Assembly (NCBI GenBank): GCA_017438975.1
Contig: JAFRUH010000019.1
Span: 12,656-76,655 of the forward strand
Direction of reading: 5' to 3'
DNA from: Bacteroidales bacterium
GTDB lineage: Bacteria; Bacteroidota; Bacteroidia; Bacteroidales; UBA932
Length of the DNA stretch: 64,000 bases
Below, piece after piece: positions 29,202 to 59,744 of this stretch (position 1 is its first letter; every line of letters begins with the position of its first letter). The position numbers were made by a program, and so were the translations under genes. Under the pieces are notes generated by a model that was not told the DNA's origin, did no database searches, and worked only from the letters and a program-made list of their open reading frames with translations.

Positions 29202-29216
29202 AAAATAATCGCTCGT

Positions 29217-31690: not shown

Positions 31691-31718
31691 ACTAATATAA
31701 TGAGATTATATCATAAAA

Positions 31719-32624: not shown

Positions 32625-32627
32625 GGG

Positions 32628-34174: not shown

Positions 34175-34179
34175 TAATC

Positions 34180-34773: not shown

Positions 34774-34778
34774 TGCTT

Positions 34779-37095: not shown

Positions 37096-37129
37096 AATGA
37101 ACTATTCCTAATTGACAATAAACTATAAA

Positions 37130-41301: not shown

Positions 41302-41309
41302 ACAATATA

Positions 41310-42212: not shown

Positions 42213-42220
42213 TACTTCAT

Positions 42221-43111: not shown

Positions 43112-43120
43112 AAAACTATG

Positions 43121-44275: not shown

Positions 44276-44277
44276 GT

Positions 44278-44982: not shown

Positions 44983-44984
44983 AA

Positions 44985-46100: not shown

Positions 46101-46140
46101 AGGCTAAAAGAATATCCGATATCATTTCTCTTATCGACAA

Positions 46141-46531: not shown

Positions 46532-47742
46532 TAGTCGAGAAGATCTATAATCTTATCTACCTCAGAATCATTTCCATAATCATGAGTAGACAGATACTTC
46601 ATAATCGTACATTGAGTTTGATTATTCTCTGCTAAGGCAATAATCCCCTCCGCACACCCCCGATTATCCTTTGGTACGATGACGCCATCAATCCCGTCCT
46701 TCACCTGATCCTTCGCTGTCGGATAATCAGTAACAATCACCGGTTTGCATAACATCTGGGCTTCTCGGACTGTAACGGAATTCCCTTCATAGCGAGATGG
46801 CTGAACATAGATATCGCACGCCTTAATGTAGGGATAGGGATTACTCTTTTTGCCAAGGATGATCACGTTCTTCTCCATCCCTACTTCCGCAATCTTTTGA
46901 CGAATTAAAGCTTCATCTCCGCCATATCCTATAAGATACCAGGTTACTCGACAATCCATCTCTATTATCCGTCTGCAGATATCCGGGACATTATCGAAGT
47001 TTTTTTGATAATGGAATCTACCAATAGATAGAAAGTTTACATTTCCATCACGTTTCGGCATCTCCTTCTCGATTTCTTCTGATGGGATGAGTTCTGCACG
47101 TTTGCGAACAAACTCTGCGGATAGAATATTATCTATTCTGATTATCCGGTCTTTTAAAGAAGGAAAAACTCTCACGAAACAATCGGTAACCGCATCTGAG
47201 ATAGAGGCGATATAATCATACGATGACCAAACCGGTAGCTCAAGGATAGCATTCACATCAATCTTTGAATAATCCGTATGGATCCACGCTACTTTTTTCT
47301 TAGCCCTTACCTTATCTGAAACGATATTATGAGGTGTCAGGAAACTGATCGCAAGGTCATACTCTCCAAACTTTTCAAGCGAAGGAAGGATCGGTGTAAC
47401 AGAATCAGCGATGTACCCTAACACAGCACTTCCGTCAATAGGATGAGATCTCTTCTTATATCGTCTAAAACGAACCTTTGCCAACAATCGTCTCCATGCA
47501 ATTCGGAAATATCCATCCTTGATGACATCCTTTAGCGGTCTCTCAATCTGCGCATATTCAGGAATCTCAGGATGAAGATGAACCTCCTTAGGGATGAACT
47601 CCATCAACTCTCCCCGATGGCTCCACAAAAACAGATCAACCTCATATTTGCTATAATCTATCGATTGAAGCAAACCGATCAGACTGATCTCGGCTCCGCC
47701 GAGTTCGAGATAATGAATAATAAAAAAGAGTTTCTTTTTCAC
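46531..47742 (-). CDS. Glycosyltransferase family 4-like
   Basis: GGAE, WIHTD, GRFHYQKNF, NPYPY, PSRYEG. Confidence 0.9.
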   Translation of the reverse strand: MKKKLFFIIHYLELGGAEISLIGLLQSIDYSKYEVDLFLWSHRGELMEFIPKEVHLHPEIPEYAQIERPLKDVIKDGYFRIAWRRLLAKVRFRRYKKRSHPIDGSAVLGYIADSVTPILPSLEKFGEYDLAISFLTPHNIVSDKVRAKKKVAWIHTDYSKIDVNAILELPVWSSYDYIASISDAVTDCFVRVFPSLKDRIIRIDNILSAEFVRKRAELIPSEEIEKEMPKRDGNVNFLSIGRFHYQKNFDNVPDICRRIIEMDCRVTWYLIGYGGDEALIRQKIAEVGMEKNVIILGKKSNPYPYIKACDIYVQPSRYEGNSVTVREAQMLCKPVIVTDYPTAKDQVKDGIDGVIVPKDNRGCAEGIIALAENNQTQCTIMKYLSTHDYGNDSEVDKIIDLLD

Positions 47743-47751
47743 TACGAAGAA

Positions 47752-49278
47752 TCAGTAACTCGGCATTAATGATTTAATATAATTCATAAAATCCTTATAT
47801 TGCTCAGAACGGTGAAACGCGAACCAATATAACAGGCATGTCAAGCAAAATGTTATCAGCCCTTTTACTATCATAGACATGAATAATGAACGAATATGAA
47901 TAGTAGAGCAAAGTGAGTAAGAAACAAATAAGCAAATGGCGAAGACGAATGAATAGACAAGTAAGTGCTTAAAATAGTTCCAAAGGCTCTTTTTAAAAAT
48001 GTATTTATAACATAGATTTGGGAATTGCCAAAAACCTATTGATAATATACTGATAGAAGTCGCTAAAAGGACCCCCGTTATACCCAGTTTCTTTACAAAT
48101 AATAGAGATAACACGACATTTATAACTCCCTGCAAAAATGGAGTCCATCGATCTTTTACGAAAATACCCGCCTTTGTTTTAAAAGTTAACGCTGTACTAC
48201 GAATACAATCCAAATAGAAGTTTAGCAGTATCAAACAAACAACTGTATCAGCCATTCTATATTCTGGTCCCAACCACCAATCTATTAATGGAGTAAGGAC
48301 ATTAAAAAGAAGGATTACTGGTATTGATACAAGAAGAAAATTAACGAAAAAACACGTCTTAAAAACAGCGTAAACTTTCTCAGTAGATTCTGAGGCTATA
48401 AGGTTTCCAACACTTGCCGAAAAACTGTCCAAACATTGATTCACCAATGATTTCACCAGACCTGTTATAAGAGTATAATTAGAGAATAAACCTGTAGCTG
48501 CCAAACTTACGAATGATGATATGATGATATTATCAGTTTGGTGCATGAAAAAACCACCAAGTTTATTGATAAAAAGGGCCTTGATATTTGTTATGATATT
48601 TGATTTCGTATTATTGTCGACAGTGTAACGTTCATGAGTTTTAACGTAGGGGAATAGTTGATCTGCCTTGTGAACAACCGCTATATTATATGCTACATTG
48701 AATAGAGACTCAACGACAAGAAATAAAATATAATTCTTTGTGAAATACAAAATCGCCAGTTTTGATATACTAAGCCCAACTTGATAAATAAGATTAATCA
48801 TTGTTAGCTTATATACCTTCTGACTTGCGTTTATCAATGACCACTTATATGCACTGAAATAATTGATAACAGAATTAAAAAGAAAAAGAAAATATACGAC
48901 GCCAACATATCTCAGATTGTTCGCGCCTTTCATAAAATACCCAATAAAAGGATACAAACCAATACCGAGAATGGTGATCCCTATTGCTATCCAAATATAA
49001 ACTCTTCGAAATAACTGTAACAATGCCAGTATCTTTGGACGATTATCTTCTGCCAGTGGTTTATACATATTGTATACGACACTAGTAGCAAAACCACCTT
49101 CCACCAAAGACATTATCCCTAAAATATTGGACAACAGTCCATTAAGGCCAAGATATTCGACACCGACATTATCCACAAATACTTTTCTCGTAACGAAACC
49201 GAGCAACACCATAATTATGGAAACACTCAGTTTGGATATCAGATTCTTTGCAGAATTTTTCGTCCGTGAAGATGACAT
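47752..49278 (-). CDS. wzx: Wzx/MATE-like polysaccharide flippase
   Basis: 12-14 TM; YLGLNGLLSNIL, LYKP-like MYKPLA, TDNIII, WLGPEY. Confidence 0.9.
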   Translation of the reverse strand: MSSSRTKNSAKNLISKLSVSIIMVLLGFVTRKVFVDNVGVEYLGLNGLLSNILGIMSLVEGGFATSVVYNMYKPLAEDNRPKILALLQLFRRVYIWIAIGITILGIGLYPFIGYFMKGANNLRYVGVVYFLFLFNSVINYFSAYKWSLINASQKVYKLTMINLIYQVGLSISKLAILYFTKNYILFLVVESLFNVAYNIAVVHKADQLFPYVKTHERYTVDNNTKSNIITNIKALFINKLGGFFMHQTDNIIISSFVSLAATGLFSNYTLITGLVKSLVNQCLDSFSASVGNLIASESTEKVYAVFKTCFFVNFLLVSIPVILLFNVLTPLIDWWLGPEYRMADTVVCLILLNFYLDCIRSTALTFKTKAGIFVKDRWTPFLQGVINVVLSLLFVKKLGITGVLLATSISILSIGFWQFPNLCYKYIFKKSLWNYFKHLLVYSFVFAICLFVSYSLCSTIHIRSLFMSMIVKGLITFCLTCLLYWFAFHRSEQYKDFMNYIKSLMPSY

Positions 49279-49291
49279 GTTACTTAATAGA

Positions 49292-50443
49292 TCAAATGTT
49301 GTTGGTATTGTTTAGCAACATCCCTAGCATTCCTTGCGCAAAAGGAAGGTACCCTAATTGTGCGGAATAAGAACCTATTGCCTTTGTATCTCCCTGGCAA
49401 AAATCAAGTTTGCCATTCCTCTGCGTCATTTTTTTTAATCTTACTAATAGCCTGTTAAGAGATTCTTGATACCGGCTATCTTTGGTAATATTGTAAGCTT
49501 CATTTATCAATAAACCGCACAAAACAGTTGAAGATCCTTCTGAAGGTCTTCCTTTAATAAAGAGTTGAGAGCCAAATCCACCATCATCATGCTGACATAA
49601 AAGAACATTATCAGCCAAACGAATAATTCTATTGCTGAATTCTAACTTAGATGGATCTTTTTTATCTGTTTCTTTATACAAACAAATCAAAGCAATGATG
49701 TACCATCCTAAACCTCTTCCCCAATCATATATTCCTAAAGGAGCCTTTAGAGAAATACTATATGCATGACTTGGAAATCCCCAATTAGCCAAACAATAAG
49801 AGTCATAATCAAAGAATACTCTCTTTGCTAATTGAGCAGCTTCTAAACATTCATATGCCACAGCATACTTCGCAAGAAAGGGGCAGACAAAACCAAGAGT
49901 ATCGACAAAACGAGTATCAAATTGTCCTTTTTTATATGGAATTGTATCGTTTACTCCTTTTAACTCCACGATATATGAAAATGTTTCATCCATTGATACT
50001 TTTACTGAAACTGGAGAAACATGGCATAGAACAGCATATGATAATAAACCAATCTCTACCGAATTAGGCTTCCGCCTCCAAGAGCCGTGGTCATTAAATA
50101 AAGAAGATAATAAACTATTGATAGAGTTCTCATCATTACAACCTAACAATAGCCCCGCCAACTGCCAATACTGAATATCGGAACTCCGATTCCTCTTGAA
50201 GATCCGGTCAAACAATAAAAGCCTATCTCTATCTTGCCGTTGAACGATCGGCACATGTAACAACCAATGATTAATAACTCTATCAACAGATTTCTTCCAT
50301 TCATCATCTGAAACCCATTGTCCAATATGTATTCTTGCAAACCACTTGGAAAATGCGATAAAAATATCATAAAGAATAATGATTATCGCAACTAAACCAA
50401 AAACAACAAAAAAATATACTAGAAAATTATTCATTGGAAACAA
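49292..50443 (-). CDS. GH88/GH105-like (alpha/alpha)6 protein with N-terminal TM anchor
   Basis: FVDTLG, WGRGLGWY, QHDDGGF, EGSST. Confidence 0.75.
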   Translation of the reverse strand: MFPMNNFLVYFFVVFGLVAIIIILYDIFIAFSKWFARIHIGQWVSDDEWKKSVDRVINHWLLHVPIVQRQDRDRLLLFDRIFKRNRSSDIQYWQLAGLLLGCNDENSINSLLSSLFNDHGSWRRKPNSVEIGLLSYAVLCHVSPVSVKVSMDETFSYIVELKGVNDTIPYKKGQFDTRFVDTLGFVCPFLAKYAVAYECLEAAQLAKRVFFDYDSYCLANWGFPSHAYSISLKAPLGIYDWGRGLGWYIIALICLYKETDKKDPSKLEFSNRIIRLADNVLLCQHDDGGFGSQLFIKGRPSEGSSTVLCGLLINEAYNITKDSRYQESLNRLLVRLKKMTQRNGKLDFCQGDTKAIGSYSAQLGYLPFAQGMLGMLLNNTNNI

Positions 50444-50520
50444 GAATAATTATCAATTCACAAGTCCAACGGATTTACTAGAATTCGGGAATCAAATAAA
50501 CCGTGACCAGGAGGAGAAAA

Positions 50521-51348
50521 CTAGTCAAAAATCTCAAGTTCAATTGAATGCCCTCCCCGCAGAGATTCAGAGGGCAAATCCCTCCAGCGTTCACCGAACT
50601 TCTGTACCAGATACTGCTCAGGATTGTTTGGGGCCAGTAACAGCAGACCTTCAAAAGGAATACGCCGAAGCGGAAAAACCACATCTTTTGTATGAATATC
50701 CTTGAAAGGGACTCCATAACTATAACTCAGTACCCCATTTGATCGATGCCACGACAATAAATGTGCAACAGGGATTAGCATTGTTTTTATTAAGAAACGA
50801 AATGGCCGTGCCATAAATGAGAGGTGATTCCAGAAGCCATTATTCTCGAAGAAAGGGTATAAGACGAAATGCTTGAACATCCATGTTATGGAATTTGAAA
50901 AACATTGAACATTACCTTCATCAATAGGAAAGATATCTATAGCAAGTCCCTTATAAATAAGACGATCCTGAATATAAGAAGAAGCATTATTCTTACTTTT
51001 CAAATCTCTAATCTTATCCCAAAACATGAGATACCATGGGTCGTTATCATGATTCTGAAGAATATAACCGGAATTCACATTCTTATCTAAAAGAATACGA
51101 TGTAGTTTTTCAGCATCTGCTCTCATCATGCAAACGTCGACATCATCATCCCACGGAATGAAACCTTCATGTCGAACTGCACCTAAAAGTGTTCCTGCAT
51201 CCATCCAATACTTAAGATTATTCTTTGTACAGATATCATCAAACCATTCTAACATCTCAACCATTCGGTATTGAGCAAGACGAAGAACAGAGCCCTCGGG
51301 ATTATACTGTTGATGCAGTAAGATATTTATTTCAGAATCTATCTTCAT
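50521..51348 (-). CDS. LicD family phosphotransferase
   Basis: AGTLLGAVRHEGFIPWDDDVD, IDIFPID, FGERWRDLP. Confidence 0.92.
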   Translation of the reverse strand: MKIDSEINILLHQQYNPEGSVLRLAQYRMVEMLEWFDDICTKNNLKYWMDAGTLLGAVRHEGFIPWDDDVDVCMMRADAEKLHRILLDKNVNSGYILQNHDNDPWYLMFWDKIRDLKSKNNASSYIQDRLIYKGLAIDIFPIDEGNVQCFSNSITWMFKHFVLYPFFENNGFWNHLSFMARPFRFLIKTMLIPVAHLLSWHRSNGVLSYSYGVPFKDIHTKDVVFPLRRIPFEGLLLLAPNNPEQYLVQKFGERWRDLPSESLRGGHSIELEIFD

Positions 51349-51350
51349 AT

Positions 51351-52493
51351 TTAGATAATAGATTTGATCGAACGTATAGCTTGCAGGTAAACTGGAATCA
51401 TAGAAACAAGATGATTCCTAATGATGCTTTCATTATCTGTCAACCATAGAAAATCATCTAACAATTGAGTTTCAGACATTATTGATTTGACCGAAATAAC
51501 ATAGTGTTTATCAGTGCCAAATAAATCAATCGCAATACCTCTTGCTTTGATAGAGTAACCTAATACTATCGTTGGAACCATAGTAGAATATGCTGCAATT
51601 GAAGCATGAGTACGAGCCGTAATCATATAACGGCAGTTTGATATTATACTTTTCAAACTTACAGCATTATTATCGGCAATATAGACGATTCGACTGTTTC
51701 CTTTATAATGATTATATATTTCATTTAGTGATTTGCGATCATCACTACTCCCCCAAACCACATGAGGAATAAGAGCTATTTGCATATCAGTATTATTCAA
51801 GACATAATCAATAAGCCTATAGTAATTATTTAATACTATTCCTTTGATTGTTTCATGTTTGATAATCATGGGACTAACATTAATTCCCAAAGTATTACCT
51901 TTAACGAATCCTTTAGGCAATGCGACATCACTTTTTTCCAGTAAGAAAGCAGGATCTGGGACAAGAGAAACATTCTGAAGTCCTCTTTGAATTAATGCCC
52001 GATATGTAAGACTCTCACGTGCATATATATGAGAATAGCGATGCAAATCTAACAGCATTTGATTATCAATAGCATCAGGCTCAATAGAACATCCCCAGAG
52101 AACTATAGGGACATGCATTTTGCTTAATTGCTCATTTATTAAATAAATATAATTCGGTTTTCCATAACAATAGTTATCACCACCAATTGATAATGCGACA
52201 TCACAAGTCTTTGCCGCCTCAAATACTGGACTAAAATGTAATAAATCTAGAGCATTATCCTTATTAAAGAACTGTCTCTGAAAAAAAGCGAGATAGAACT
52301 TTGGGTTTCTATGCGATAACTGGACTCTATCAGGAATACAATTTACTATTTTCCCTAAACCATAGCGAATATCCTCCTCTTGACAAGATGTCATTAAGGA
52401 AAACTCTCCTCCTAGAATAGTCTTCGTAGAGCGAACGATTGCCTCACACCCGTGATTACCACTACCCCCATGCGGATATAATAAAAACTTCAT
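51351..52493 (-). CDS. Polysaccharide pyruvyl transferase
   Basis: GSGNHGCEAI, IGGDNY, ARES, DPAF, RTHASI, YSIKA. Confidence 0.9.
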   Translation of the reverse strand: MKFLLYPHGGSGNHGCEAIVRSTKTILGGEFSLMTSCQEEDIRYGLGKIVNCIPDRVQLSHRNPKFYLAFFQRQFFNKDNALDLLHFSPVFEAAKTCDVALSIGGDNYCYGKPNYIYLINEQLSKMHVPIVLWGCSIEPDAIDNQMLLDLHRYSHIYARESLTYRALIQRGLQNVSLVPDPAFLLEKSDVALPKGFVKGNTLGINVSPMIIKHETIKGIVLNNYYRLIDYVLNNTDMQIALIPHVVWGSSDDRKSLNEIYNHYKGNSRIVYIADNNAVSLKSIISNCRYMITARTHASIAAYSTMVPTIVLGYSIKARGIAIDLFGTDKHYVISVKSIMSETQLLDDFLWLTDNESIIRNHLVSMIPVYLQAIRSIKSII

Positions 52494-53467
52494 TTCTCTA
52501 TAATTCTAAAATACAGATAAAAAAGCCACCACATTCTAAAATGTATTCCAAACTTTATCCATCTTGCACATGAAAAAACATAAGAATAAAGTGTTAGATC
52601 GGCTATTTCATCTATTTGAAGAATTCTTTTAATATAATCGGACGACTGGTTTTTCAATTTGGGGAACAAAAAGATCCCGTCAAATACTATTCCCCACAAA
52701 CGTTGAAAAAGGTATTCGTTCGACACTATACCAGATAATTTTTTTTGAGAATAGAAACTTCTCAAGAGTTTCCACTGGTAATAGTCAATGTCAAATCTAT
52801 CATCACGTATTTTCCCAGATAATGATTGAGGCCCGACAATTCGATAATGATAAAGAACAGTATCGATTGTCGTAATTGATGTAACATGGTTCAGATATGA
52901 GATATTGAACATCAAATCCTCTCCATAGGAACTTGTAATATCAAAACAGATCTTCCACTTACGTATTATTTCCCTTCTATACAACTTGACAACAGGGCCG
53001 AAAAGTAAGTAACTCCTATTCAAGTCAGTAAATAATTCAACAGTATCAGGTGATAGAATAAATGATGATCTATTACAAGAAAATAAAGTTTGATGGCCAT
53101 CTGAAAACTCCTGGGCTAAGCCACAAACTGATAAATCTGATTGGCGATCAGTCAATGCAAATAATAATTCCTTAAGATAATCTGGATCGACCCAATCATC
53201 ACTATCTATAAATGCTATATACTCACCACGAGCAACCTGAATTCCTTTGTTTCGAGCCGAAGATACACCCAAATTATCTTGATGAATAATAACAAAACGG
53301 GGATCTCTATGAGAATACTCTTTACAAATCTCAAGAGATTCATCATCAGATCCATCATCAACCAATATGCATTCAAAATCCTCATAGCTCTGAGAAATGA
53401 TAGAGTCTAAACAGTCTCGAAGAAATTGAGCAGCATTATAAATAGGTACTATTACTGATACGATCAT
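52490..53467 (-). CDS. Glycosyltransferase family 2
   Basis: SVIVPIYN, VDDGSDD, GVSSARNKG, FIDSDD. Confidence 0.92.
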   Translation of the reverse strand: MIVSVIVPIYNAAQFLRDCLDSIISQSYEDFECILVDDGSDDESLEICKEYSHRDPRFVIIHQDNLGVSSARNKGIQVARGEYIAFIDSDDWVDPDYLKELLFALTDRQSDLSVCGLAQEFSDGHQTLFSCNRSSFILSPDTVELFTDLNRSYLLFGPVVKLYRREIIRKWKICFDITSSYGEDLMFNISYLNHVTSITTIDTVLYHYRIVGPQSLSGKIRDDRFDIDYYQWKLLRSFYSQKKLSGIVSNEYLFQRLWGIVFDGIFLFPKLKNQSSDYIKRILQIDEIADLTLYSYVFSCARWIKFGIHFRMWWLFYLYFRIIEK

Positions 53468-54021
53468 ACTATATAACCAATACTATTCTCAAGTTCCTGT
53501 TTCATCCTCTCTTTTTTCTCCTCTGTAATAGAACTTATTAAATAATCCGATTCATATTTAATTCCTTCCTGCAACTGTCTTTTACGTTTTTGCATATAAT
53601 CTTCGTATGTGCATAGTACATGACATGGATTCCCTGCTGCTACCATGCCATCTGGAATTGAATGAGTAACAATAGAACCGGCTCCAATGATACAATCATT
53701 ACCTATTTTTACTCCAGGGAGAACGATAGATCCTGCCCCAATAAAAACATTATTTCCAATGGTTGTTTTTCTTATTACAGTATATCCAAGAGTATTTTTA
53801 GTACTAGCATCATGAGCGAGTATATGAACTCTAGGGGCTAGAGTAACTCGATCTCCTATTGATATTAACCAGGCATGACTAATATCCAATAAAACTCCAG
53901 ACTGTATATTACAATCTGCTCCAATCTTCATTCCTGAATCAATCGCTCGTTCTAAAACTGACCGATCATCTATTCCGGCCAACTTTCGAAGCCATTTAAT
54001 AAACTTATTAATGATAATCAT
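53464..54021 (-). CDS. Hexapeptide-repeat O-acetyltransferase
   Basis: IGDRV, HDAS, IGNNVFIGAGSIVLPGVKIG, AAGNP; ATGA overlap with the upstream stop. Confidence 0.9.
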   Translation of the reverse strand: MIIINKFIKWLRKLAGIDDRSVLERAIDSGMKIGADCNIQSGVLLDISHAWLISIGDRVTLAPRVHILAHDASTKNTLGYTVIRKTTIGNNVFIGAGSIVLPGVKIGNDCIIGAGSIVTHSIPDGMVAAGNPCHVLCTYEDYMQKRKRQLQEGIKYESDYLISSITEEKKERMKQELENSIGYIV

Positions 54022-55154
54022 AATATAGACTGAAACTTTGTGATGAGTTCCGATAGCTTTATCGAATCTCCTCTCCAAACTGCTTTCTTCCTCAATAACA
54101 ATAACTTGCCTCGATTTTGTAATAATTCCTCCAACCCTCGCTCTAAAGAATTGCTATCGTTATCGACAATCATTCCACATTCTCCTCCATTCAATAATTC
54201 GTTAACTCCCGAGCACTTTGTTGTTATCACTGGGACTCCCAGTATCATAGCTTCTGTTAATACGGTACTGTAACCTTCCGATCTTGAAGAGCAAATAAAT
54301 AGATCTGATTCTAATAAGTCGGGATATGGATTCTCAAGATAGCCAAGAAGATGAACATAGTCAGACATATTATGACTATCAATATAAGACTGCAAATTCC
54401 GTAATTGGGGACCTTCTCCAATGATAATTAAATCAAACTGGTAACCTTTTTCAAATAGATGTTTTGCAATGGGTAATAAACGATCATACCCTTTCTGCTC
54501 AACAAGCCTCCCTATACTGATTAATTTAATTCTTCTATGCCGAAAAACTGGATCTGCAGCTGTCGAGAGTTTCCTAATTGACTGATCATCAATTGGATTA
54601 TAAAGGACCATGAGACTATCGAGTTCACCATACACTTTAAGCATCGACTCTTTTACATTCTCGGAAACACATACAATACGATCGTATTTCTGATATGATT
54701 GCTTTTCTTCCTCATAACTCTTATATGCTACACTTGACCAATGATTACGATCCATATCAATGTGTACCCAGGCAATCTTGCGGCAAATAGATCTACAGCC
54801 ACTTACGATACGAGTCGCATACCCTTCAATAAATGCAATTACTGTATCATATCGTCCATGAACGAATAAAGAATAAAACAAAGCAGGAGATGCATGTTGA
54901 TACAGAAATAACTTTATTTTATTCTCTACTCTTATCAATAAATTCCCGATTCTCGATGTATTCCTACCTCTTGTGCTATTATAAATATACGAATAATTAA
55001 TCCCCTTCGGATATAGTTCATTCAGTTGATCCCTGACAACACTGCATAGAGTAACTTCATATCGGGATAGATCTATATTATTTAGAATTGTTTGAAGAAC
55101 TTTTTCTGCTCCTCCCCCATATAAACTATTGCTCAAAAAAAGAACTCTCTTCAT
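54018..55154 (-). CDS. Glycosyltransferase family 4-like
   Basis: GGGAEK, WVHID, GRLVEQKG, SSRSEG. Confidence 0.9.
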   Translation of the reverse strand: MKRVLFLSNSLYGGGAEKVLQTILNNIDLSRYEVTLCSVVRDQLNELYPKGINYSYIYNSTRGRNTSRIGNLLIRVENKIKLFLYQHASPALFYSLFVHGRYDTVIAFIEGYATRIVSGCRSICRKIAWVHIDMDRNHWSSVAYKSYEEEKQSYQKYDRIVCVSENVKESMLKVYGELDSLMVLYNPIDDQSIRKLSTAADPVFRHRRIKLISIGRLVEQKGYDRLLPIAKHLFEKGYQFDLIIIGEGPQLRNLQSYIDSHNMSDYVHLLGYLENPYPDLLESDLFICSSRSEGYSTVLTEAMILGVPVITTKCSGVNELLNGGECGMIVDNDSNSLERGLEELLQNRGKLLLLRKKAVWRGDSIKLSELITKFQSIL

Positions 55155-56278
55155 GATAATACAAACTCTATCAACTGCATAATCCTTTCAATAGAAAACT
55201 CTTTCCCCCTCTCTTCTGCTTTCTTCGAATAATACTCTAACTCATTCGAAGATAATAATTGCTTGATTCCTTCATACAATGCTTCTTCACTATTAGATGT
55301 TATAAGACCATATTGGCCGTCCTGTAATAACTCATTCATGCCGGAACAATTAGTCGTTATCACAGGAACTCCAAGAATTAGAGCTTCAGTCACAGCAGTA
55401 CTATATCCCTCACTTCTGGAGGAACAAATAAAAAGATCAGATACCTTAAGATATGGATAGGGATTAGGACAAAAGCCCATCAAACTGATATATTTTTGCA
55501 TGTTATTCTCCTCTATCATCCGATTTAGTTTTGAATGATCTGGACCTTCTCCTAAAATATTCAACACAAAATCATATCCCTCATCATGTAATCGTTTTAG
55601 TATTGGAATAAGTCGATCATATCCTTTTTGATGAACAAGCCTACCAATTGATATAAGATTGATATTACCTGTTAGAAAATGACTCCTCTCACAGTTCTTC
55701 CCACTTAGATTTAATATTTCGTCAGAATCAATCGGATTATATAAAACCCCAATGTTATCAAAACCCTTACAAAACTCACTCATTGAATCTTTAACAGATT
55801 TCGAAACACAAATAATTTTGTCGAATTTTTGATACGCCCTTATTTCTTCTTCGCGCGAATGGTAAACTAAATCTGTCCAATGGTTAATCATTAAATCAAT
55901 ATGGACCCATGCTATTTTTTTTGAATGGCGATTCGTGCTATGAGATAGCAATTTCGTAGAAAAACCTTCAATAAAAGCGACCTCAATATCATTCCGCTTT
56001 GGAACAAAAAGAAGGTATACCAGTTTCAATGGCAAAATATTATAAACCAGTTTATATTTAACCTTCCCAAACAGCGTATTCGTTTTATTAAGGATATATT
56101 TATAATTAACACAGGACTTTACCTCACATATATATTCTCCAGTATTTACAATACTACAGACTGTCACATTATATTTTTCCTGATTAATATTCCTCACTAA
56201 TGTTGTGAGTACTTTTTCTGCCCCACCTCCACTGAGTGATTCAATAATAAAAAGAACTTTCTTTTTGTTATAACTCAT
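55151..56278 (-). CDS. Glycosyltransferase family 4-like (paralogue of 54018-55154)
   Basis: GGGAEK, WVHID, GRLVHQKG, SSRSEG; start at MSYNKK. Confidence 0.9.
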   Translation of the reverse strand: MSYNKKKVLFIIESLSGGGAEKVLTTLVRNINQEKYNVTVCSIVNTGEYICEVKSCVNYKYILNKTNTLFGKVKYKLVYNILPLKLVYLLFVPKRNDIEVAFIEGFSTKLLSHSTNRHSKKIAWVHIDLMINHWTDLVYHSREEEIRAYQKFDKIICVSKSVKDSMSEFCKGFDNIGVLYNPIDSDEILNLSGKNCERSHFLTGNINLISIGRLVHQKGYDRLIPILKRLHDEGYDFVLNILGEGPDHSKLNRMIEENNMQKYISLMGFCPNPYPYLKVSDLFICSSRSEGYSTAVTEALILGVPVITTNCSGMNELLQDGQYGLITSNSEEALYEGIKQLLSSNELEYYSKKAEERGKEFSIERIMQLIEFVLS

Positions 56279-58655
56279 TGTCGAATTGATAAATAAATGT
56301 TCTATAATGCTCCTTAAAACTGGCCTTTTGTCCACACTTATTATCATGAAAATTCACTACCCGAGTTAAGTAATGAAACCCATAACGCTTTAAAACATCA
56401 TCATTGGAAGAGTGTCTCCAATCAGCAATACCAAAACCTGCCGTTTTGAAAGTATTACTAAGCACGTCACTATTTATATTATTGTAAATCACGACTCCAG
56501 CATCAGTCATATTGTCATAAAAAAACAACGTATAAACGCCAAAAAATAGCCGCCCTATTGATGTATTTGTTCGCGAAAAATGACAATGATTGATAACTAG
56601 GTCTTTAGCAAAACTATCTTCATAATTTATATGATAGTTCGTGGCTCCAACCATAAAAACAGGGATAACTGTACCACGATAGTTTTTCGAAATATTGCTT
56701 TTACTAAACGAACAATTCCTAATGGTATTATAATTACTGCCTCCGGAAATCCCTCCTCTATGATTATCATGAATTTGGCAATTCTCAATAATACAATGAC
56801 TAGATATCAGATCTGAAATAGTTGCACTATGCTGGATTCCCTCTTCTGGAACTACCTCATCGTACCACGACTGTATTTTAACGCCTGTTTCATTAGGCAA
56901 TAATGAGAAATAATCCAAATATGATGAATGAATGATTCTTAATGGTTGTTCTGTGGACTCTTTCTCATTAAAAGTCAGAATATCAATATTGTGGTAATTA
57001 TTGATAAGTCTCGTGTAACCAAGATTATTATTAATAGAAAACACTCTTTTTTCTGCAATTCTTTCAATAGTCTGGAGACCTTTTCTATAATGGTTTGTAA
57101 GTTTCAAATAATTGGAAATAGTACATCTCTCTTTATTCTCATTGTCTTTTACTATCTGACCTTCCTTTTCGACGAATTTTCCATATTGAGCTTTACCACT
57201 CCAGGTCATCACTGGTGTAGAATAGTTCGAGTCATAACTCCGATACCAATTCCCAAATTGAGAAACGGAGATTCCATCGGCCATAAAGCCGCTAAGATCA
57301 AGATGATGTATACGAATATTCTGACAATACGCAGACAAAGCAAACGCTCTGCTATTCTCAAGGTTCCTTTCTGCTCCTTCATCATAATCACGTAAAGCCC
57401 TATCACCGACCATCTTGGCATCATGAATCTGTAAATTTATGCAAGCAGCGATAAAGAAAAGCGTTCCGCCTTGAGCATAAGGCTTATCAAGATTGAGCGT
57501 ATAATACTTTGATTTCTTCTTACTATCTAAGATGAGATAATAAGTGGCGCCACCAAAATCAATATCGAATTTATCGAGGTCTTGAATCAGTACAATCGGC
57601 CCCTCCTGAGGTTTCTCATTTTTTGTCGTCCTCGGGGTGAAACAGTAGTCGTTCTTCGGAAATCTTATGCCGTCGTAGCCGTTGCGGTAGGCCCACTGGA
57701 TGGCTTCGGTGAAGCCGACGCCGTTCTGGTACATCAGGTCGTACTGGCGGTCGGTGTAGTGCCCGTCTGCACCCTTTTTCTGGTAGCCGGGAGTAATGCC
57801 AAACTTCTTCAGATCAACAACATAGACCTTCTTCGGAGCGGAGGTATCCCAGGGAAAGACCGGGTCTTCATGGACCCCCCAGAGATCGACGAGGGTCTCA
57901 TAATACTCGCCCGTGACCTTGACCTTGCTGATGCGCGTCTCTTTCGAAATTCCGTAGATCGGCGTCATCCGCGTCTGGCCCATCACGAGCGTCCCGTTCC
58001 GGAGCTCGCCGTTTTCGAGGTCCAGGACGGACCCGTACGGCATCGTGACGGCCTTGCCGGCAAGGTCGAAGGTGCCTTCGATGATGTACCTGCGGCACCG
58101 CTGATTCATCATCGCCTGGGTCAGGACCTTCCCGTTTCCGCCCTTCAGGACGACCCGCTCGAGTCCTGTGATATCCTTCGTCACCCCGAGGTCCGGACCG
58201 ACGCCCCTCGCAGAGGTCCGGGATACTCCGGTTGAGCTTTCTGAGCCCGGGACCGTTGTCCTGGGAGCCGGGACGGACATCCCGGAAGAATTCGCCGCCG
58301 CTCCCGAGGACCTCGTGGCAGTTCCCGCCGTTCCGGAGGTTGCAGCGCCTTGTGGGAGAGGCCTCGCAACTTTCCCGGAAGTGGTTCCCGTTCCGGAAGC
58401 CGTTCCCTTAGTGGAAGCCTTATTCATCGCCGACAGCTCCGCCAGGGATATCTCCTTCACCACCCCTGTCGAGTTCTGGTTCCCGGACTCGGCCCGGGGC
58501 TGGGTCTGCGCCTTTACCGTCTCCCCCGCCTCCTGCGCACTTCGCAGCGCCGCCCCCTGCCCGCAGGCGAGGACGAAAAGAGCCCCTGCGGCGCATACTG
58601 CGATGCGTCGTAGAAGAATGGATCCAACTTGAAAAATCAAAATGCTAAACCTCAA
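56268..58655 (-). CDS. Large probable lipoprotein with right-handed beta-helix (pectate-lyase-like) repeats
   Basis: VLAC lipobox-like site, S/T/G/A-rich linker, YDGIRFPKNDY, NLQIHD, FMADGI, IENCQIHDNHRGG. Start uncertain (TTG 58655 or 58640; no ATG). Confidence 0.7.
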   Translation of the reverse strand: MRFSILIFQVGSILLRRIAVCAAGALFVLACGQGAALRSAQEAGETVKAQTQPRAESGNQNSTGVVKEISLAELSAMNKASTKGTASGTGTTSGKVARPLPQGAATSGTAGTATRSSGAAANSSGMSVPAPRTTVPGSESSTGVSRTSARGVGPDLGVTKDITGLERVVLKGGNGKVLTQAMMNQRCRRYIIEGTFDLAGKAVTMPYGSVLDLENGELRNGTLVMGQTRMTPIYGISKETRISKVKVTGEYYETLVDLWGVHEDPVFPWDTSAPKKVYVVDLKKFGITPGYQKKGADGHYTDRQYDLMYQNGVGFTEAIQWAYRNGYDGIRFPKNDYCFTPRTTKNEKPQEGPIVLIQDLDKFDIDFGGATYYLILDSKKKSKYYTLNLDKPYAQGGTLFFIAACINLQIHDAKMVGDRALRDYDEGAERNLENSRAFALSAYCQNIRIHHLDLSGFMADGISVSQFGNWYRSYDSNYSTPVMTWSGKAQYGKFVEKEGQIVKDNENKERCTISNYLKLTNHYRKGLQTIERIAEKRVFSINNNLGYTRLINNYHNIDILTFNEKESTEQPLRIIHSSYLDYFSLLPNETGVKIQSWYDEVVPEEGIQHSATISDLISSHCIIENCQIHDNHRGGISGGSNYNTIRNCSFSKSNISKNYRGTVIPVFMVGATNYHINYEDSFAKDLVINHCHFSRTNTSIGRLFFGVYTLFFYDNMTDAGVVIYNNINSDVLSNTFKTAGFGIADWRHSSNDDVLKRYGFHYLTRVVNFHDNKCGQKASFKEHYRTFIYQFDNEL

Positions 58656-59127
58656 CGGCCTCGAGAAAATGCAATTCTCTCAGCGATGCTGTGCTATGGA
58701 AAGACAATTGGTCAAACAGCTTATATGCCTTCAACTGAATGATGGTCGCTTCCTCGGACAATTCTCCGTTCTCGTACATGTTGATGGTCAGATAGAGCCG
58801 GTCATTCGCGACCGGACCCATAACCAGGTTATAATCATGGTCCCGACGGAGTTTTCTGCATCCGACGATGAATTGAAGCCACTCCCGGTCCACTCCGTTG
58901 AACCGGCGAACTTTATATTTCGGGTTATCCAACAAGGACTCATCGAATTCAAAAACGGATACAACAGCCCGTTCCGACCCGCTTCGTTCTTTCCGGATAT
59001 GGGCCCATCGCTCGGCCTGTTCGAAACTGGTCGTAGCATAGAAACCCTTTCCGAAATCCGTGTTGGGACGTCCTCTTGAAATCAAGGGACGCCGAACTGC
59101 AACCGTGGAACCGTGATACAGTTTCAT
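58645..59127 (-). CDS. DUF3990 family protein (ADP-ribosyltransferase-like fold)
   Basis: LYHGS, DFGKGFY, A..WA, DLVMGPVANDR-like, QLSFHS. Confidence 0.82.
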   Translation of the reverse strand: MKLYHGSTVAVRRPLISRGRPNTDFGKGFYATTSFEQAERWAHIRKERSGSERAVVSVFEFDESLLDNPKYKVRRFNGVDREWLQFIVGCRKLRRDHDYNLVMGPVANDRLYLTINMYENGELSEEATIIQLKAYKLFDQLSFHSTASLRELHFLEAVEV

Positions 59128-59546
59128 CGCCTTTTCTCTATGAAATGGACGATATCCTGCAGGACGAAGTCAAGATCCTGCGTATGGAGGAAATCATAAT
59201 TATCGAGGACGAAATCATCTGCATGGTATCTTTCAAAAAGGGCCATTGCTTGCAAGGACGTCATTCCGACCTTCTCCGCATACCTTTCAAGGCAGAACAC
59301 ATAGAACTCGAATGCGGCGAATCCAACTACTCTGTCACTCTCCTTCCGCTTTTTTTCGAACTCCTCGTATAGCGATTCGGTATCGAGATACCACCATTTT
59401 GCTTTTTCGTTATACAGTTCTGCCGCCATAGGATTGATGTAGATATAAGTCAATGCCTCTTGCAGAGAAATGCGTTTTCTCTTCGAGATGAAAACAGCCA
59501 GGTGGGCTATCTTGATGGGAACGATGTTCTGCTCGATTTTGGCCAT
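59124..59546 (-). CDS. Tandem DUF3791-like protein
   Basis: C-terminal half FYVFCLERYA..G...MALFERY...YDFLHTQD..FV..DI is DUF3791-like; N-terminal half shows a similar helical pattern; 4-nt overlap with DUF3990. Confidence 0.72.
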   Translation of the reverse strand: MAKIEQNIVPIKIAHLAVFISKRKRISLQEALTYIYINPMAAELYNEKAKWWYLDTESLYEEFEKKRKESDRVVGFAAFEFYVFCLERYAEKVGMTSLQAMALFERYHADDFVLDNYDFLHTQDLDFVLQDIVHFIEKRR

Positions 59547-59549
59547 GAC

Positions 59550-59700
59550 ATGGATCTAAACAATTACTACTAAATCCATTCCTCGGCCCATTCAGCACAG
59601 ACCAAGGGAAGGACAGGCTACGACAGTTTATCTGTCTCGACGGGAATCCGCTATCCAGCGCACCCCCGGCAGCCCGGTAATGATCCTTCGCGCACGCGCG
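59550..59700 (-). ncRNA. Candidate structured 5' leader RNA (three-way junction plus two hairpins)
   Basis: Hand-folded stems GAAGGA/UCCUUC, CGGGCUGC/GUAGCCUG, CGGGGGU-CGCU/AGCG-AUUCCCG, GACAG/CUGUC, CCUUGGUCU/GGGCCGAGG, AUGGAUUUAG/UUAGAUCCAU. Confidence 0.6.
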
Positions 59701-59712
59701 ATGATTAACAAG

Positions 59713-59744
59713 CAAATATACAGTAAATATCTGGAATATTCAAA
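59713..59744 (-). promoter_or_regulatory. Canonical promoter heading the DUF3791-DUF3990-polysaccharide run
   Basis: TTTG (59741-59744), 20-nt spacer, TATATTTG (59713-59720). Confidence 0.8.

What the first reader, a model, noticed from the sequence alone, without database searches (positions are those of the whole stretch)
58645..59546. DUF3791x2-DUF3990 (ART-like) pair as the first cistrons of the polysaccharide run
Seen: two small overlapping genes (4-nt overlap) between the promoter/leader and the glycan genes, with the second overlapping or abutting the next start and no terminator evident. Known, from recall: DUF3990 is grouped with the ADP-ribosyltransferase fold (HGS...GFY resembles the H-Y motifs of PARP/diphtheria-like ARTs); its target is unknown. 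Inference: an antitoxin-first toxin-antitoxin or anti-phage module wired into capsule expression. It could stabilise the swappable cassette, trigger abortive infection when capsule-targeting phage shut off transcription, or regulate the operon by ADP-ribosylation. The fused double DUF3791 is itself unusual.
Basis: partly seen in the sequence, partly recalled or inferred. Interest (0 to 1): 0.7.

Follow-up and report, generated by a model that had tools for sequence, protein, structure and literature searches.

The report
ART-like toxin–antitoxin cassette heading polysaccharide operon
Two small overlapping genes at the start of a rumen Bacteroidales polysaccharide operon belong to a widespread, catalogued but untested mobile cassette (PADLOC candidate PDC-M13) that most likely pairs an ADP-ribosyltransferase-fold toxin with its helical neutraliser, and its closest relatives also sit inside polysaccharide loci.

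Summary
A 140-aa gene (59546..59124) and a 160-aa DUF3990 gene (59127..58645) overlap by ATGA. They lie behind a full Bacteroidetes promoter (59744..59713) and a ~165-nt structured leader. A 790-aa lipoprotein gene starts 4 nt downstream and opens a long glycosyltransferase run.

DUF3990 models as a compact ADP-ribosyltransferase (ART) fold. Its nearest solved neighbours are the RES and ParT toxins, and H5, Y30 and Q140 are near-invariant family-wide.

The 140-aa protein is not an oddity. It joins the two small helical proteins that flank DUF3990 in three-gene relatives, and this fused form is found in 52 of 71 species-level loci.

The cassette matches PADLOC's untested candidate PDC-M13. It also sits on about 90 plasmids, including pMMCAT next to a HipA module, and is abundant in rumen genomes.

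What is new here is the context. In the closest clade, 17 of 25 loci are embedded co-directionally in polysaccharide loci, against 5 of 46 more distant loci. They usually lie at the junction between the conserved and the variable part, often just after UDP-glucose dehydrogenase.

Best reading: a mobile toxin–neutraliser or abortive-infection cassette riding in the operon. A functional link to the capsule is not shown. I rate it a new member of a known, uncharacterised kind, of moderate interest.

The parts
59713..59744 (-). Bacteroidetes-type promoter: -33 TTTG (59744-59741), 20-nt spacer, -7 TATATTTG (59720-59713). The predicted transcription start is near 59706.
   Evidence: Read. The full pattern occurs 3 times in the window against 0.49 expected. 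Homology with the sister lineage L092 starts exactly here, at 59750. RNA-type contigs reach up to 59687 and none goes beyond the predicted start.
59547..59712 (-). 5' leader of about 165 nt, GC-rich and strongly structured.
   Evidence: RNA fold of -70.1 kcal/mol, z = -3.47 against shuffles. About 88% conserved in L092 and L096. No Rfam match.
59124..59546 (-). Gene for the 140-aa two-domain helical partner, the putative antitoxin or neutraliser, here called 'DUF3791 x2'.
   Evidence: The AF2 model is all-helical with pLDDT 72.9 and has no solved fold neighbour. dN/dS is 0.084 against L092.
59346..59525 (-). N-terminal domain (residues 8-67). A divergent DUF3791-like domain, equivalent to the separate small gene that lies downstream of DUF3990 in three-gene systems.
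   Evidence: PADLOC PDLC04441, E 1.4e-12. A profile of this half hits the downstream small ORFs of L075 (2.5e-15), L074 and L076. Those ORFs give sub-threshold DUF3791 hits.
59130..59309 (-). C-terminal domain (residues 80-139): canonical DUF3791.
   Evidence: Pfam PF12668, E 1.4e-14, profile positions 1-60 of 60. Equivalent to the upstream 70-78-aa gene of split systems.
59124..59127 (-). ATGA overlap: the stop codon of the partner gene overlaps the start codon of DUF3990, which implies translational coupling.
   Evidence: Sequence. The same 4-nt overlap occurs in 35 of 52 fused loci.
58645..59127 (-). Gene for the 160-aa DUF3990 protein, a compact ART fold and the putative toxin or effector. 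Candidate catalytic residues are H5, Y30 and Q140.
   Evidence: Pfam E 2.3e-46. PADLOC PDC-M13B and M13A at 1e-49 to 1e-51. AF2 pLDDT 88.7. Foldseek hits to RES, ParT and PARP-2 and to ART-PolyVal. Family-wide invariants. dN/dS is 0.117.
56268..58640 (-). Next cistron: a 790-aa lipoprotein-like protein with a signal peptide and lipobox, a Ser/Thr/Gly-rich linker and a beta-helix C-terminal part. It starts 4 nt after the DUF3990 stop. It is compositionally chimeric, with a GC junction near 57400-57600.
   Evidence: Conserved together with the pair in the sister lineage. RNA-type contigs cross the junction at 58475-58656 and 58521-58671.
29000..57500 (-). Low-GC (32-42%) glycan biosynthesis cassette downstream of the pair, all on the same strand.
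   Evidence: for composition. for gene content: GT4, GT2 and GT1 glycosyltransferases, EpsG, LicD, pyruvyl transferase, Bac_transf and others.

Best explanation
The two genes are a mobile cassette with three domains carried in two genes, of the family PADLOC lists as candidate PDC-M13.

Shown:
- The second gene encodes a 160-aa protein with a minimal ART fold. Its closest solved neighbours are the NAD+-using toxins RES and ParT. It has an H5 / Y30 / Q140 set that is near-invariant across the family.
- The first gene encodes two small helical DUF3791-type domains. In other phyla these are separate genes flanking DUF3990, and they also occur covalently fused to it.
- The two genes are translationally coupled through ATGA, and both are under purifying selection.
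- Here they are the first two cistrons behind a canonical Bacteroidetes promoter and a structured leader. The glycan genes follow without a gap.

Inferred:
- DUF3990 is a growth-arresting NAD+-dependent enzyme, acting either by ADP-ribosylating an essential target or by destroying NAD+.
- The DUF3791 domains bind it and keep it off.
- Loss of the cassette, or a stop in its transcription (for example phage-induced shut-off of host transcription), frees the enzyme.
- The cassette has no terminator. In most relatives embedded in polysaccharide loci it also has no recognisable promoter of its own. It therefore lives nested inside long operons, namely polysaccharide loci, type I restriction systems and operons in front of housekeeping genes.
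- In this window it sits at the seam between the host-like head of the locus and a 28-kb low-GC replaceable glycan cassette. Its expression is therefore slaved to the polysaccharide promoter.
- The most economical reason for that position is hitch-hiking and addiction at a recombination hot spot, possibly with an abortive-infection benefit, rather than a role in making or regulating the polysaccharide.
For: Identity.

Fold:
- AF2 pLDDT 88.7.
- Foldseek against PDB gives RES toxin 9r35_D (prob 0.99, TM 0.47-0.51), VPA0770, ParT 6d0i_C, PARP-2, exotoxin A, pertussis S1 and diphtheria toxin.
- Foldseek against BFVD gives a viral homologue at E 2.8e-12 and an ART-PolyVal-like protein at 1.4e-4.
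- Pfam places DUF3990 in its ART clan (PMC7955679).

Family-wide invariants: H5 in 67 of 68 sequences, Y30 in 66 of 68, Q140 in 68 of 68, plus a GPVAND motif.

Toxin precedent: DUF3990 is the variable C-terminal domain of the type VI secretion Rhs proteins Rhs5 and RhsA, and in Serratia it is followed by a predicted immunity gene (PMC4524185, PMC10763514).

Partnership of the components:
- The fused partner lies upstream in 52 of 71 loci, with a 4-nt overlap in 35 of those 52.
- Split A-B-C gene layouts exist.
- Fusion proteins exist in both orientations: DUF3791-DUF3990 and DUF3990-N-half.

Selection: dN/dS is 0.08 for the partner and 0.12 for DUF3990. Against L007 the partner is more diverged than the enzyme (69% against 78% identity).

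Mobility:
- About 90 plasmids carry the pair. On pMMCAT it sits beside a HipA/HTH pair, a PRTase-SLOG pair and an IS4 element.
- The pMMCAT paper counts five addiction modules on that plasmid but does not name them.
- The family is patchily spread over Bacteroidota, Spirochaetota, Synergistota, Verrucomicrobiota, Planctomycetota and Fibrobacterota.
- The pair's GC is usually lower than that of the flank upstream of it, and in the window it lies between the GC of the two flanks.

PDC-M13 comes from a screen for genes embedded in BREX, DISARM and type I restriction-modification systems.

Operon geometry.

RNA-type contigs cross both gene junctions.
Against: - No experiment exists for any DUF3791/DUF3990 pair. 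PDC-M13 is one of 145 untested candidates.
- The Foldseek E-values against solved structures are weak (3e-3 to 1e-2, TM about 0.5).
- There is no sequence-level link to any solved ART.
- The third catalytic position is Q, not the E of the classical H-Y-E transferases. The chemistry could therefore be NAD+ hydrolysis, nucleic-acid modification or something else.
- The partner has no recognisable fold, so neutralisation by binding is only inferred.
- Covalent fusions of partner and enzyme are unusual for classical type II TA pairs. They would also fit a regulatory or adaptor subunit.
- The RNA evidence comes from low-depth assembled contigs, and DNA carry-over cannot be excluded.
Confidence: 0.55

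Rival explanations
1. It is a genuine anti-phage abortive-infection system, that is, PDC-M13 is a real defence system. A phage cue, either host transcription shut-off that depletes the partner or a phage protein sensed by the DUF3791 domains, releases the ART-like effector. The infected cell is then arrested or killed. This overlaps with the best explanation and differs only in the selected benefit.
For: - Strong matches to the PADLOC PDC-M13 models, and also to M10 and M42.
- The family was found by embedding in BREX, DISARM and type I restriction-modification loci.
- HsdS-DUF3990 merged ORFs exist.
- PDC-M13 has 3,324 hits in 6,530 rumen genomes, a phage-rich habitat.
- Downstream neighbours in relatives include AAA_21, AAA_15 and KAP NTPase genes, and SocA_Panacea, RES and PBECR3 genes.
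- Fused effector-sensor polypeptides exist.
Against: - The system is untested.
- Many copies sit in housekeeping or polysaccharide contexts rather than defence islands.
- A few phage-labelled records carry homologues.
- There is no PHROGs match.
Confidence: 0.3
2. It is a device specific to polysaccharide loci. It either regulates the operon by ADP-ribosylating a transcription or export factor, in the way UpxY/UpxZ act as first cistrons of Bacteroides capsule operons, or it enforces retention or expression of the adjacent glycan cassette.
For: - It occupies the first-cistron position behind the promoter and a long structured leader.
- In the closest clade 17 of 25 loci have at least 2 co-oriented polysaccharide genes within the flanks, against 5 of 46 in more distant loci (Fisher p = 1.3e-6).
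- Across at least a dozen different immediate neighbours it recurs at the seam between conserved and variable parts.
- UDP-glucose dehydrogenase lies directly upstream in three unrelated lineages.
- The 78%-identical homologue lies between Wza-Wzc-CpsB and an MBOAT gene.
Against: - Members of the same family at 53-57% identity sit on plasmids next to TA pairs and in front of ABC-F and thioesterase genes, with no polysaccharide genes nearby.
- There is no NusG/KOW or other regulator domain.
- Other obviously selfish small genes occupy the same loci: HigBA, PDDEXK_3, 23S_rRNA_IVP, Panacea and RES. This points to a permissive landing site.
- The loci in the closest clade are not fully independent phylogenetically.
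Confidence: 0.1
3. It is a non-toxic enzyme complex. DUF3990 would be an NAD+-dependent modifying or repair enzyme, for example a Tpt1-like or Arr-like enzyme that detoxifies a small molecule or processes nucleic-acid ends. The DUF3791 domains would be its adaptor subunits.
For: - Covalent fusions of the helical domains to the enzyme, in the same order as the split genes, are typical of subunits of one enzyme.
- Q rather than E occupies the third catalytic position.
- Arr (rifampin ADP-ribosyltransferase) and DarT appear among the weak fold matches.
Against: - DUF3990 is used as an Rhs C-terminal toxin domain.
- The best fold neighbours are TA toxins.
- The family is mobile and patchily distributed, and it has TA neighbours on plasmids.
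Confidence: 0.08

Closest known systems
PADLOC phage defence candidate PDC-M13 (Payne et al., bioRxiv 10.1101/2024.01.29.577857)
   Same: Both proteins hit the PDC-M13 A, B and C models at 1e-12 to 1e-51. The components are the same: two small DUF3791-type proteins plus DUF3990. The habit of nesting inside larger operons is also the same.
   Different: Here the A and C components are fused in permuted order (C-A) upstream of B, making two genes instead of three. The host operon is a polysaccharide locus, not a restriction or BREX system. PDC-M13 itself has never been tested.
Xre-RES and ParS-ParT toxin-antitoxin systems (RES-domain NADase; ParT ADP-ribosylates Prs)
   Same: They give the best solved fold matches to the DUF3990 model (9r35_D, 8gug_A, 6d0i_C; prob 0.90-0.99; TM 0.47-0.51 for 9r35_D and 6d0i_C, 0.39-0.40 for 8gug_A). 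They are also compact toxins of about 150-160 aa with an ART fold, encoded after a helical antitoxin in a two-gene operon.
   Different: There is no sequence similarity and no Pfam RES hit. The conserved set is H-Y-Q rather than R-E-S. The partner is not an Xre or DUF2384 HTH protein.
DUF3990 C-terminal domains of type VI secretion Rhs effectors (Serratia marcescens Rhs5; Enterobacter bugandensis RhsA)
   Same: The Pfam domain is the same. It occupies the variable toxin position, and in Serratia it is followed by a predicted immunity gene (PMC4524185, PMC10763514).
   Different: Those are secreted polymorphic toxins with unrelated immunity proteins. Here the domain stands alone, acts inside the cell and is paired with DUF3791. 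The activity of the Rhs domains is also unknown.
ART-PolyVal domains of phage and conjugative-element polyvalent proteins
   Same: They share the fold (Salmonella phage Mutine protein, Foldseek E 1.4e-4, TM 0.52).
   Different: The similarity is at fold level only. Those domains are parts of very large multi-domain proteins delivered by phages.
UpxY/UpxZ first cistrons of Bacteroides capsule operons (my own knowledge of the system)
   Same: Two small genes lie directly behind the promoter and a long leader of a polysaccharide operon.
   Different: There is no NusG/KOW domain and no homology. The same cassette also occurs outside polysaccharide loci.

Membership tests
Pfam DUF3990 (PF13151) | Whole-protein score above the curated cut-off, with a full-length match. 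| tested here: met
   157.7 bits against 32.2. Residues 1-154 match profile positions 1-152 of 152.
Pfam DUF3791 (PF12668) | Score above the curated cut-off, C-terminal domain. | tested here: met
   54.2 bits against 25. Residues 80-139 match profile positions 1-60 of 60.
Pfam DUF3791 (PF12668) | A second copy in the N-terminal half, as implied by the label 'x2'. | tested here: inconclusive
   No Pfam hit even at E = 10. hhalign of the N half against the C half gives E 0.16. However, the N half matches the downstream small proteins of split systems, and these reach 16-23 bits on DUF3791, just under the cut-off.
PADLOC PDC-M13 | Adjacent genes matching the A/C (small helical) and B (DUF3990) models. 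| tested here: met
   PDLC04433, 04434, 04445 and 04441 at 1e-12 to 1e-15. PDLC04438 and 04436 at 1e-49 to 1e-51. The architecture here is a fused two-gene variant.
PADLOC PDC-M13 | Protection against phage. | not testable with these tools
   The source lists it among 145 untested candidates.
ADP-ribosyltransferase superfamily (H-Y-[E/D/Q] branch) | The split beta-sheet ART fold. | tested here: met
   AF2 model with pLDDT 88.7. The coherent top Foldseek hits are all ARTs (RES, ParT, PARP-2, ExoA, PT-S1, DT, Arr, CT; ART-PolyVal, DarT), although E-values against PDB are only 3e-3 to 1e-2. Pfam clan assignment from PMC7955679.
ADP-ribosyltransferase superfamily (H-Y-[E/D/Q] branch) | Conserved His on strand 1, Tyr on strand 2 and an acidic or amide residue on a late strand. 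| tested here: inconclusive
   H5 (67 of 68 sequences), Y30 (66 of 68) and Q140 (68 of 68) sit on predicted strands 2-7, 29-32 and 137-143.
ADP-ribosyltransferase superfamily (H-Y-[E/D/Q] branch) | NAD+ binding and ADP-ribose transfer or NAD+ hydrolysis. | not testable with these tools
   Needs biochemistry.
Type II toxin-antitoxin system | Two small co-oriented, translationally coupled genes that are mobile and patchily distributed. | tested here: met
Type II toxin-antitoxin system | The toxin arrests growth, and the antitoxin binds and neutralises it. | not testable with these tools
   Only indirect support: use as an Rhs toxin domain and fusion proteins that imply interaction.
Xre-RES / ParST | RES-domain sequence signature and an Xre or DUF2384 antitoxin. 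| tested here: not met
   No Pfam RES or HTH hit. No sequence match to solved RES or ParT. The similarity is at fold level only.
UpxY/UpxZ capsule regulators | A NusG-like (NGN/KOW) first cistron. | tested here: not met
   No such Pfam domain in either protein.

The most novel reading that the evidence does not exclude
The cassette is not a passive passenger. It would be a device that couples cell survival to continued transcription or retention of the polysaccharide locus it heads. Because the partner and the ART-like enzyme are the first cistrons of the operon, or are embedded mid-operon, silencing or deleting the locus, or phage-induced shut-off of it, would release the enzyme. This would explain why, in more than 20 rumen Bacteroidales species and in single Verrucomicrobia and Planctomycetota genomes, it sits at the seam between the conserved and variable parts, often directly after the NAD+-dependent UDP-glucose dehydrogenase.
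Probability: 0.12. Interest if true: 0.75.

Novelty: new member of a known kind. Interest (0 to 1): 0.45.

Why it matters
DUF3990/DUF3791 is one of the most abundant uncharacterised candidate defence cassettes in rumen and gut Bacteroidales. It has 3,324 PADLOC hits in 6,530 rumen genomes, about 5,500 protein clusters at 50% identity, and it is carried by the pervasive pMMCAT plasmid. Its biochemistry is entirely unknown.

This analysis gives concrete handles for experiments:
- A predicted H5/Y30/Q140 active site.
- The finding that the system has three interacting modules, with natural split, permuted and fused forms.
- A defined native context in which the cassette's expression is tied to a polysaccharide promoter.

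If the enzyme turns out to be a new ADP-ribosylating or NAD+-consuming toxin, it would add a fourth ART-type TA family beside DarTG, ParST and Xre-RES. If the link to polysaccharide loci is functional, it would be a new way of stabilising or policing surface-glycan diversity, which governs phage susceptibility and host interaction in gut bacteria.

Tried and rejected
- Sequence searches of both proteins, and of the DUF3990 profile, against PDB found only chance-level hits.
- A fold search with the DUF3791 x2 model found nothing (best E 1.8). The HTH-like hints (XRE, sigma, UBA) are not significant, so I do not claim DNA binding.
- NCBIfam and PHROGs gave no family for either protein.
- hhalign of the N half against the C half was not significant. 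The internal-duplication claim rests only on transitive evidence.
- I looked for an invertible promoter. Only 10-13-nt imperfect inverted repeats at chance level were found, and none flanks the promoter. Phase variation by inversion is rejected.
- The leader has no Rfam match, even at E = 1.
- Six public contigs encoding the identical DUF3990 at first seemed to show different neighbours. BLAST showed they are all the same locus with different gene calls, so they were rejected as evidence of variable context.
- Pfam counts of the two nearest neighbours on each side across 53 loci were too heterogeneous, at 80-97 families, to support a universal polysaccharide link. The association appeared only after splitting by clade.
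- The sigma-70 style promoter and terminator scan is not suited to Bacteroidetes. I used it only to note that no intergenic terminator-like sites are present.
- A literature search for toxin-antitoxin modules in Bacteroides capsule loci returned nothing.

Full report
**1. What is in the sequence**

The finding's coordinates hold two minus-strand ORFs, 59546..59124 (140 aa) and 59127..58645 (160 aa). On the minus strand bases 59127-59124 read ATGA, so the stop of the first gene overlaps the start of the second.

Pfam results:
- The second protein matches DUF3990 end to end (E 2.3e-46, 157.7 bits against a 32.2 cut-off).
- Residues 80-139 of the first protein match DUF3791 (E 1.4e-14).

The plus-strand ORFs listed over the same stretch have no family support and are antisense artefacts.

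The next minus-strand ORF is a 790-795-aa protein. It has a lipoprotein-type signal (…GALFVLAC|GQ), a Ser/Thr/Gly-rich linker and a weak beta-helix signature. It starts at TTG 58640, 4 nt after the DUF3990 stop, which is the start used by public gene callers. TTG 58655 would overlap by 11 nt.

After it comes an uninterrupted same-strand run of glycan genes:
- GT4, GT4, hexapeptide acyltransferase, GT2 and pyruvyl transferase;
- LicD, GH88-like, GT1, EpsG and further GT4 and GT2 genes;
- a second LicD, an aminotransferase, a cytidylyltransferase-oxidoreductase fusion and a GNAT;
- a third LicD and Bac_transf, among others.

**2. Promoter, leader and operon geometry**

The 254-nt gap upstream of the pair contains TTTG (59744-59741), a 20-nt spacer and TATATTTG (59720-59713). 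From my own knowledge, this is the Bacteroidetes primary-sigma consensus, TTTG-N19-21-TAnnTTTG. The complete pattern occurs only three times in the 64-kb window, where 0.49 is expected and 0 of 100 shuffles reach 3. The other two copies lie directly before a tRNA gene and before the UDP-glucose dehydrogenase gene, which serve as positive controls.

The implied leader of about 165 nt folds to -70 kcal/mol (z = -3.5) and matches no Rfam family.

No full-consensus promoter and no intergenic terminator-like site separates the pair from the glycan genes. The first sizeable minus-strand gap downstream is 46100-46531.

Assembled contigs from RNA-type rumen and gut libraries cover both gene junctions (58851-59192; 58475-58656; 58521-58671). 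They also cover the leader up to 59687, and none extends beyond the predicted start near 59706. Depth is low and DNA carry-over cannot be excluded, so this evidence is supportive, not conclusive.

UDP-glucose dehydrogenase, a GH3 hydrolase and an acyltransferase lie upstream on the same strand behind their own promoter.

**3. Where the window comes from, and the seam**

The identical locus is present on a 188-kb scaffold from a ruminant gut metagenome. The closest genomes are rumen Bacteroidales MAGs.

Composition by region:
- The flanks are 55-60% GC.
- The stretch 29.0-57.5 kb is 32-42% GC.
- The pair is 45-50% GC.
- The switch falls inside the lipoprotein gene, near 57400-57600.

A sister lineage (L092-L097) has a partner protein 94% identical and a DUF3990 92% identical. 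It is homologous to the window from exactly 59750, the -33 element, down to 56478. Identity is about 90% down to 57627 and drops after that. Upstream of the promoter the sister lineage carries a HigB/HTH_3 pair where the window has the acyltransferase. After the lipoprotein gene the sequence differs again.

The unit promoter-leader-pair-lipoprotein head is thus a conserved block sitting between variable neighbours, and the low-GC glycan cassette is replaceable.

**4. The DUF3990 protein**

The AlphaFold2 model is confident (pLDDT 88.7, pTM 0.83).

Against solved structures, all the coherent top hits are ART-fold proteins: RES toxin of Xre-RES (9r35_D, prob 0.99), VPA0770, ParT (6d0i_C), PARP-2, exotoxin A, pertussis S1, diphtheria toxin, Arr and cholera toxin. 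TM is about 0.5 to RES and ParT, and E-values are modest at 3e-3 to 1e-2.

Against predicted viral structures there is one clear homologue (E 2.8e-12, TM 0.70). It is followed by ART-PolyVal-like, PARP-like and DarT entries.

Pfam places DUF3990 in its ART clan (PMC7955679). Sequence searches against PDB find nothing.

I aligned 68 proteins from 75 species-level loci, reaching down to about 26% identity. The near-invariant positions are:
- H5-G6-S/T7;
- D24-F25-G26-x-G28-F29-Y30-x-T32;
- W41, W83, R91 and D100;
- G104-P-V-A-N108-D109;
- Q140 (68 of 68) and F143.

H5, Y30 and Q140 lie on predicted strands 2-7, 29-32 and 137-143. I read them as an H-Y-Q version of the H-Y-[E/D/Q] ART signature. 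This is an inference, because I could not inspect model coordinates.

**5. The partner protein**

The model is all-helical with two domains. pLDDT is 72.9 overall and is high for residues 76-139. It has no significant fold neighbour.

Only the C-terminal half is DUF3791 by Pfam. The N-terminal half matches a different PADLOC model (PDLC04441 'PDC-M13C', E 1.4e-12).

In more distant relatives (Treponema, other Spirochaetia, Synergistaceae, Verrucomicrobia and one Bacteroidales MAG) the system has three genes. A 70-78-aa DUF3791 gene comes first, then DUF3990, then a 70-82-aa gene. A profile of the window's C half hits the upstream gene (1e-9 to 1e-20). A profile of the N half hits the downstream gene (L075 2.5e-15, L074 1.2e-13, L076 2.3e-8, others about 1e-3). 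Several of those downstream proteins score just under the DUF3791 cut-off.

The 140-aa protein is therefore a permuted fusion (C-A) of the two small components, both of which are DUF3791-type domains.

This fused form is the rule, not the exception:
- It is present in 52 of 71 loci.
- The 4-nt overlap is present in 35 of those 52.

Natural single-chain fusions exist in the order of the split genes: DUF3791-DUF3990 (P0236, P0256, P0298) and DUF3990-N-half (P0290, P0263). This argues that all three modules act as one complex.

**6. How the family behaves**

The profile finds 5,473 clusters at 50% identity. Almost all are stand-alone proteins of about 160 aa.

PADLOC models PDC-M13B and M13A match at 1e-49 to 1e-51. 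PDC systems are 145 untested candidates. They were derived from genes embedded inside BREX, DISARM and type I restriction-modification operons (bioRxiv 10.1101/2024.01.29.577857). Consistent with this, some database proteins are HsdS-DUF3990 merged ORFs. PDC-M13 is among the commonest PADLOC hits in rumen genomes, with 3,324 hits in 6,530 genomes (PMC13356809).

About 90 plasmids carry the pair at about 54% identity. They include an 8.6-kb record annotated as a Parabacteroides plasmid and the roughly 98-kb pMMCAT plasmid. On pMMCAT the pair is free-standing, next to a HipA/HTH toxin-antitoxin pair, a PRTase-SLOG pair, an IS4 element and an SSB gene. The pMMCAT preprint mentions five addiction modules but does not name them.

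DUF3990 is also the variable C-terminal domain of type VI secretion Rhs proteins. In Serratia it is followed by a predicted immunity gene (PMC4524185, PMC10763514).

Between the window and its sister lineage both genes are under purifying selection, with dN/dS of 0.084 and 0.117. Against L007 the partner is more diverged than the enzyme, at 69% against 78% identity.

**7. Association with polysaccharide loci**

The 78%-identical homologue lies between Wza-Wzc-CpsB, overlapping CpsB, and an MBOAT gene. SocA_Panacea, RES or PBECR3 modules lie further down the same locus.

I scanned the 75 loci with a conservative local panel of polysaccharide genes. The table gives the number of loci with co-oriented panel genes within the held flanks.

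| Group | At least 1 panel gene | At least 2 panel genes |
|---|---|---|
| Closest clade (L017-L041, 57% identity or more) | 21 of 25 | 17 of 25 |
| Next Bacteroidota group | not quoted | 3 of 27 |
| Remaining, more distant loci (mostly split three-gene systems) | not quoted | 2 of 19 |

Fisher's test of the closest clade against the rest gives p = 1.3e-6.

Further points:
- The two loci with 2 or more panel genes in the most distant group are a Thermoguttaceae locus flanked by glycosyltransferases and a Verrucomicrobia locus directly after UDP-glucose dehydrogenase.
- Pfam scans added RmlA, RmlC, PMI, WecG and CapE-like genes, and confirmed UDP-glucose dehydrogenase as the most frequent upstream family, in 6 of 87 neighbours.
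- Immediate neighbours are mostly unique, with at least a dozen different contexts.
- GC typically steps down from the upstream flank through the pair to the downstream flank. The cassette therefore tends to mark the seam between conserved and variable parts.
- In this clade most copies have no -7 box within 300 nt upstream and so appear to be read through from upstream genes. More distant copies often have a -7 box 25-45 nt before the start.
- The same polysaccharide loci also hold other small selfish-looking genes: PDDEXK_3, 23S_rRNA_IVP and HigBA.
- The next clade lies in front of ABC-F and acyl-ACP thioesterase genes, with no polysaccharide genes nearby.

The association is real but clade-limited. 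The loci are not fully independent, and the simplest reading is a permissive, recombination-prone landing site.

**8. Mechanism proposed**

The points in sections 1 to 7 are shown. Inferred: DUF3990 is an NAD+-using, growth-arresting enzyme held inactive by the DUF3791 domains. Interrupting cassette expression or losing the cassette releases it. This gives addiction to the carrying DNA, abortive infection after phage shut-off, or both.

In this window the cassette's transcription depends on the polysaccharide promoter. I put 0.55 on the toxin-neutraliser reading and 0.3 on a genuine defence benefit, which overlaps with it. I put about 0.1 on a role specific to polysaccharide loci and about 0.08 on a non-toxic enzyme complex.

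**9. Novelty and verdict**

The cassette is already catalogued as PDC-M13, annotated in RefSeq as DUF3791 and DUF3990 proteins, and abundant. It is therefore a new member of a known but uncharacterised kind.

The new points from this analysis are:
- the permuted-fusion origin of the partner;
- the fusion-protein evidence for a three-module complex;
- the H5/Y30/Q140 prediction;
- the clade-specific embedding at the seam of polysaccharide loci, often next to UDP-glucose dehydrogenase.

Interest is moderate at 0.45. The target and chemistry are open, and the system is common enough in gut ecosystems to be worth an experiment.

Noticed in passing
window 29000-57500: A 28.5-kb low-GC island (32-42% GC against 55-60% in the flanks). 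It holds a complete glycan cassette on the minus strand: several GT4, GT2 and GT1 genes, EpsG, three LicD genes, a pyruvyl transferase, Bac_transf and a cytidylyltransferase-oxidoreductase fusion. It looks horizontally acquired and replaceable.
   Followed up: partly
window 56268-58640 (minus strand): The 790-aa lipoprotein-like beta-helix gene is compositionally chimeric. Its first ~1.1 kb is 56-66% GC and the rest is 31-37%. Against the sister lineage it is about 90% identical down to 57627 and only 66-76% beyond. A recombination junction seems to lie inside the gene. It has no Pfam family above threshold and no PDB sequence match.
   Followed up: partly
L092 8926-9597, against window 59801-60913: The sister lineage carries a HigB-like toxin and HTH_3 pair on the opposite strand exactly where the window has an Acyl_transf_3 gene. 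Homology resumes at the -33 promoter element.
   Followed up: yes
window 59547-59712 (minus strand): The ~165-nt leader is unusually stable as RNA (-70 kcal/mol, z = -3.5). It is conserved in the sister lineage and matches no Rfam family. It may be a regulatory element of the polysaccharide operon.
   Followed up: partly
L044, L067 and L073; also L030, L032, L038 and L039: UDP-glucose 6-dehydrogenase is the gene directly upstream of the cassette in three unrelated lineages, one of them a Verrucomicrobia MAG. It lies within 2 kb in four more loci, and three genes upstream in the window. This is far more than expected for a gene present once or twice per genome, and it is unexplained.
   Followed up: partly
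L007-L012, L019-L040: Polysaccharide loci of rumen Bacteroidales are peppered with small selfish-looking or defence-type genes on the operon strand. They include SocA_Panacea, RES, PBECR3, Phage_P4_cII, PDDEXK_3, 23S_rRNA_IVP, AAA_21, AAA_15 and KAP NTPase.
   Followed up: partly
P0206, P0283, P0296: Database proteins in which a type I restriction specificity subunit (HsdS) C-terminus runs directly into a full DUF3990 domain. These are either true fusions or read-through gene calls of cassettes embedded in restriction-modification operons.
   Followed up: no
window 46100-46531 (minus strand): This is the only sizeable intergenic gap inside the glycan run. It contains a -7-type box (46255-46262) and may be an internal promoter that splits the run into two transcription units.
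   Followed up: no
window 59096-59127 (run X27, record 8): One RNA-library contig matches only the first 32 nt of the DUF3990 gene and then continues into 246 nt of unrelated sequence upstream. It probably comes from a related cassette with a different partner gene or context in the same community.
   Followed up: no
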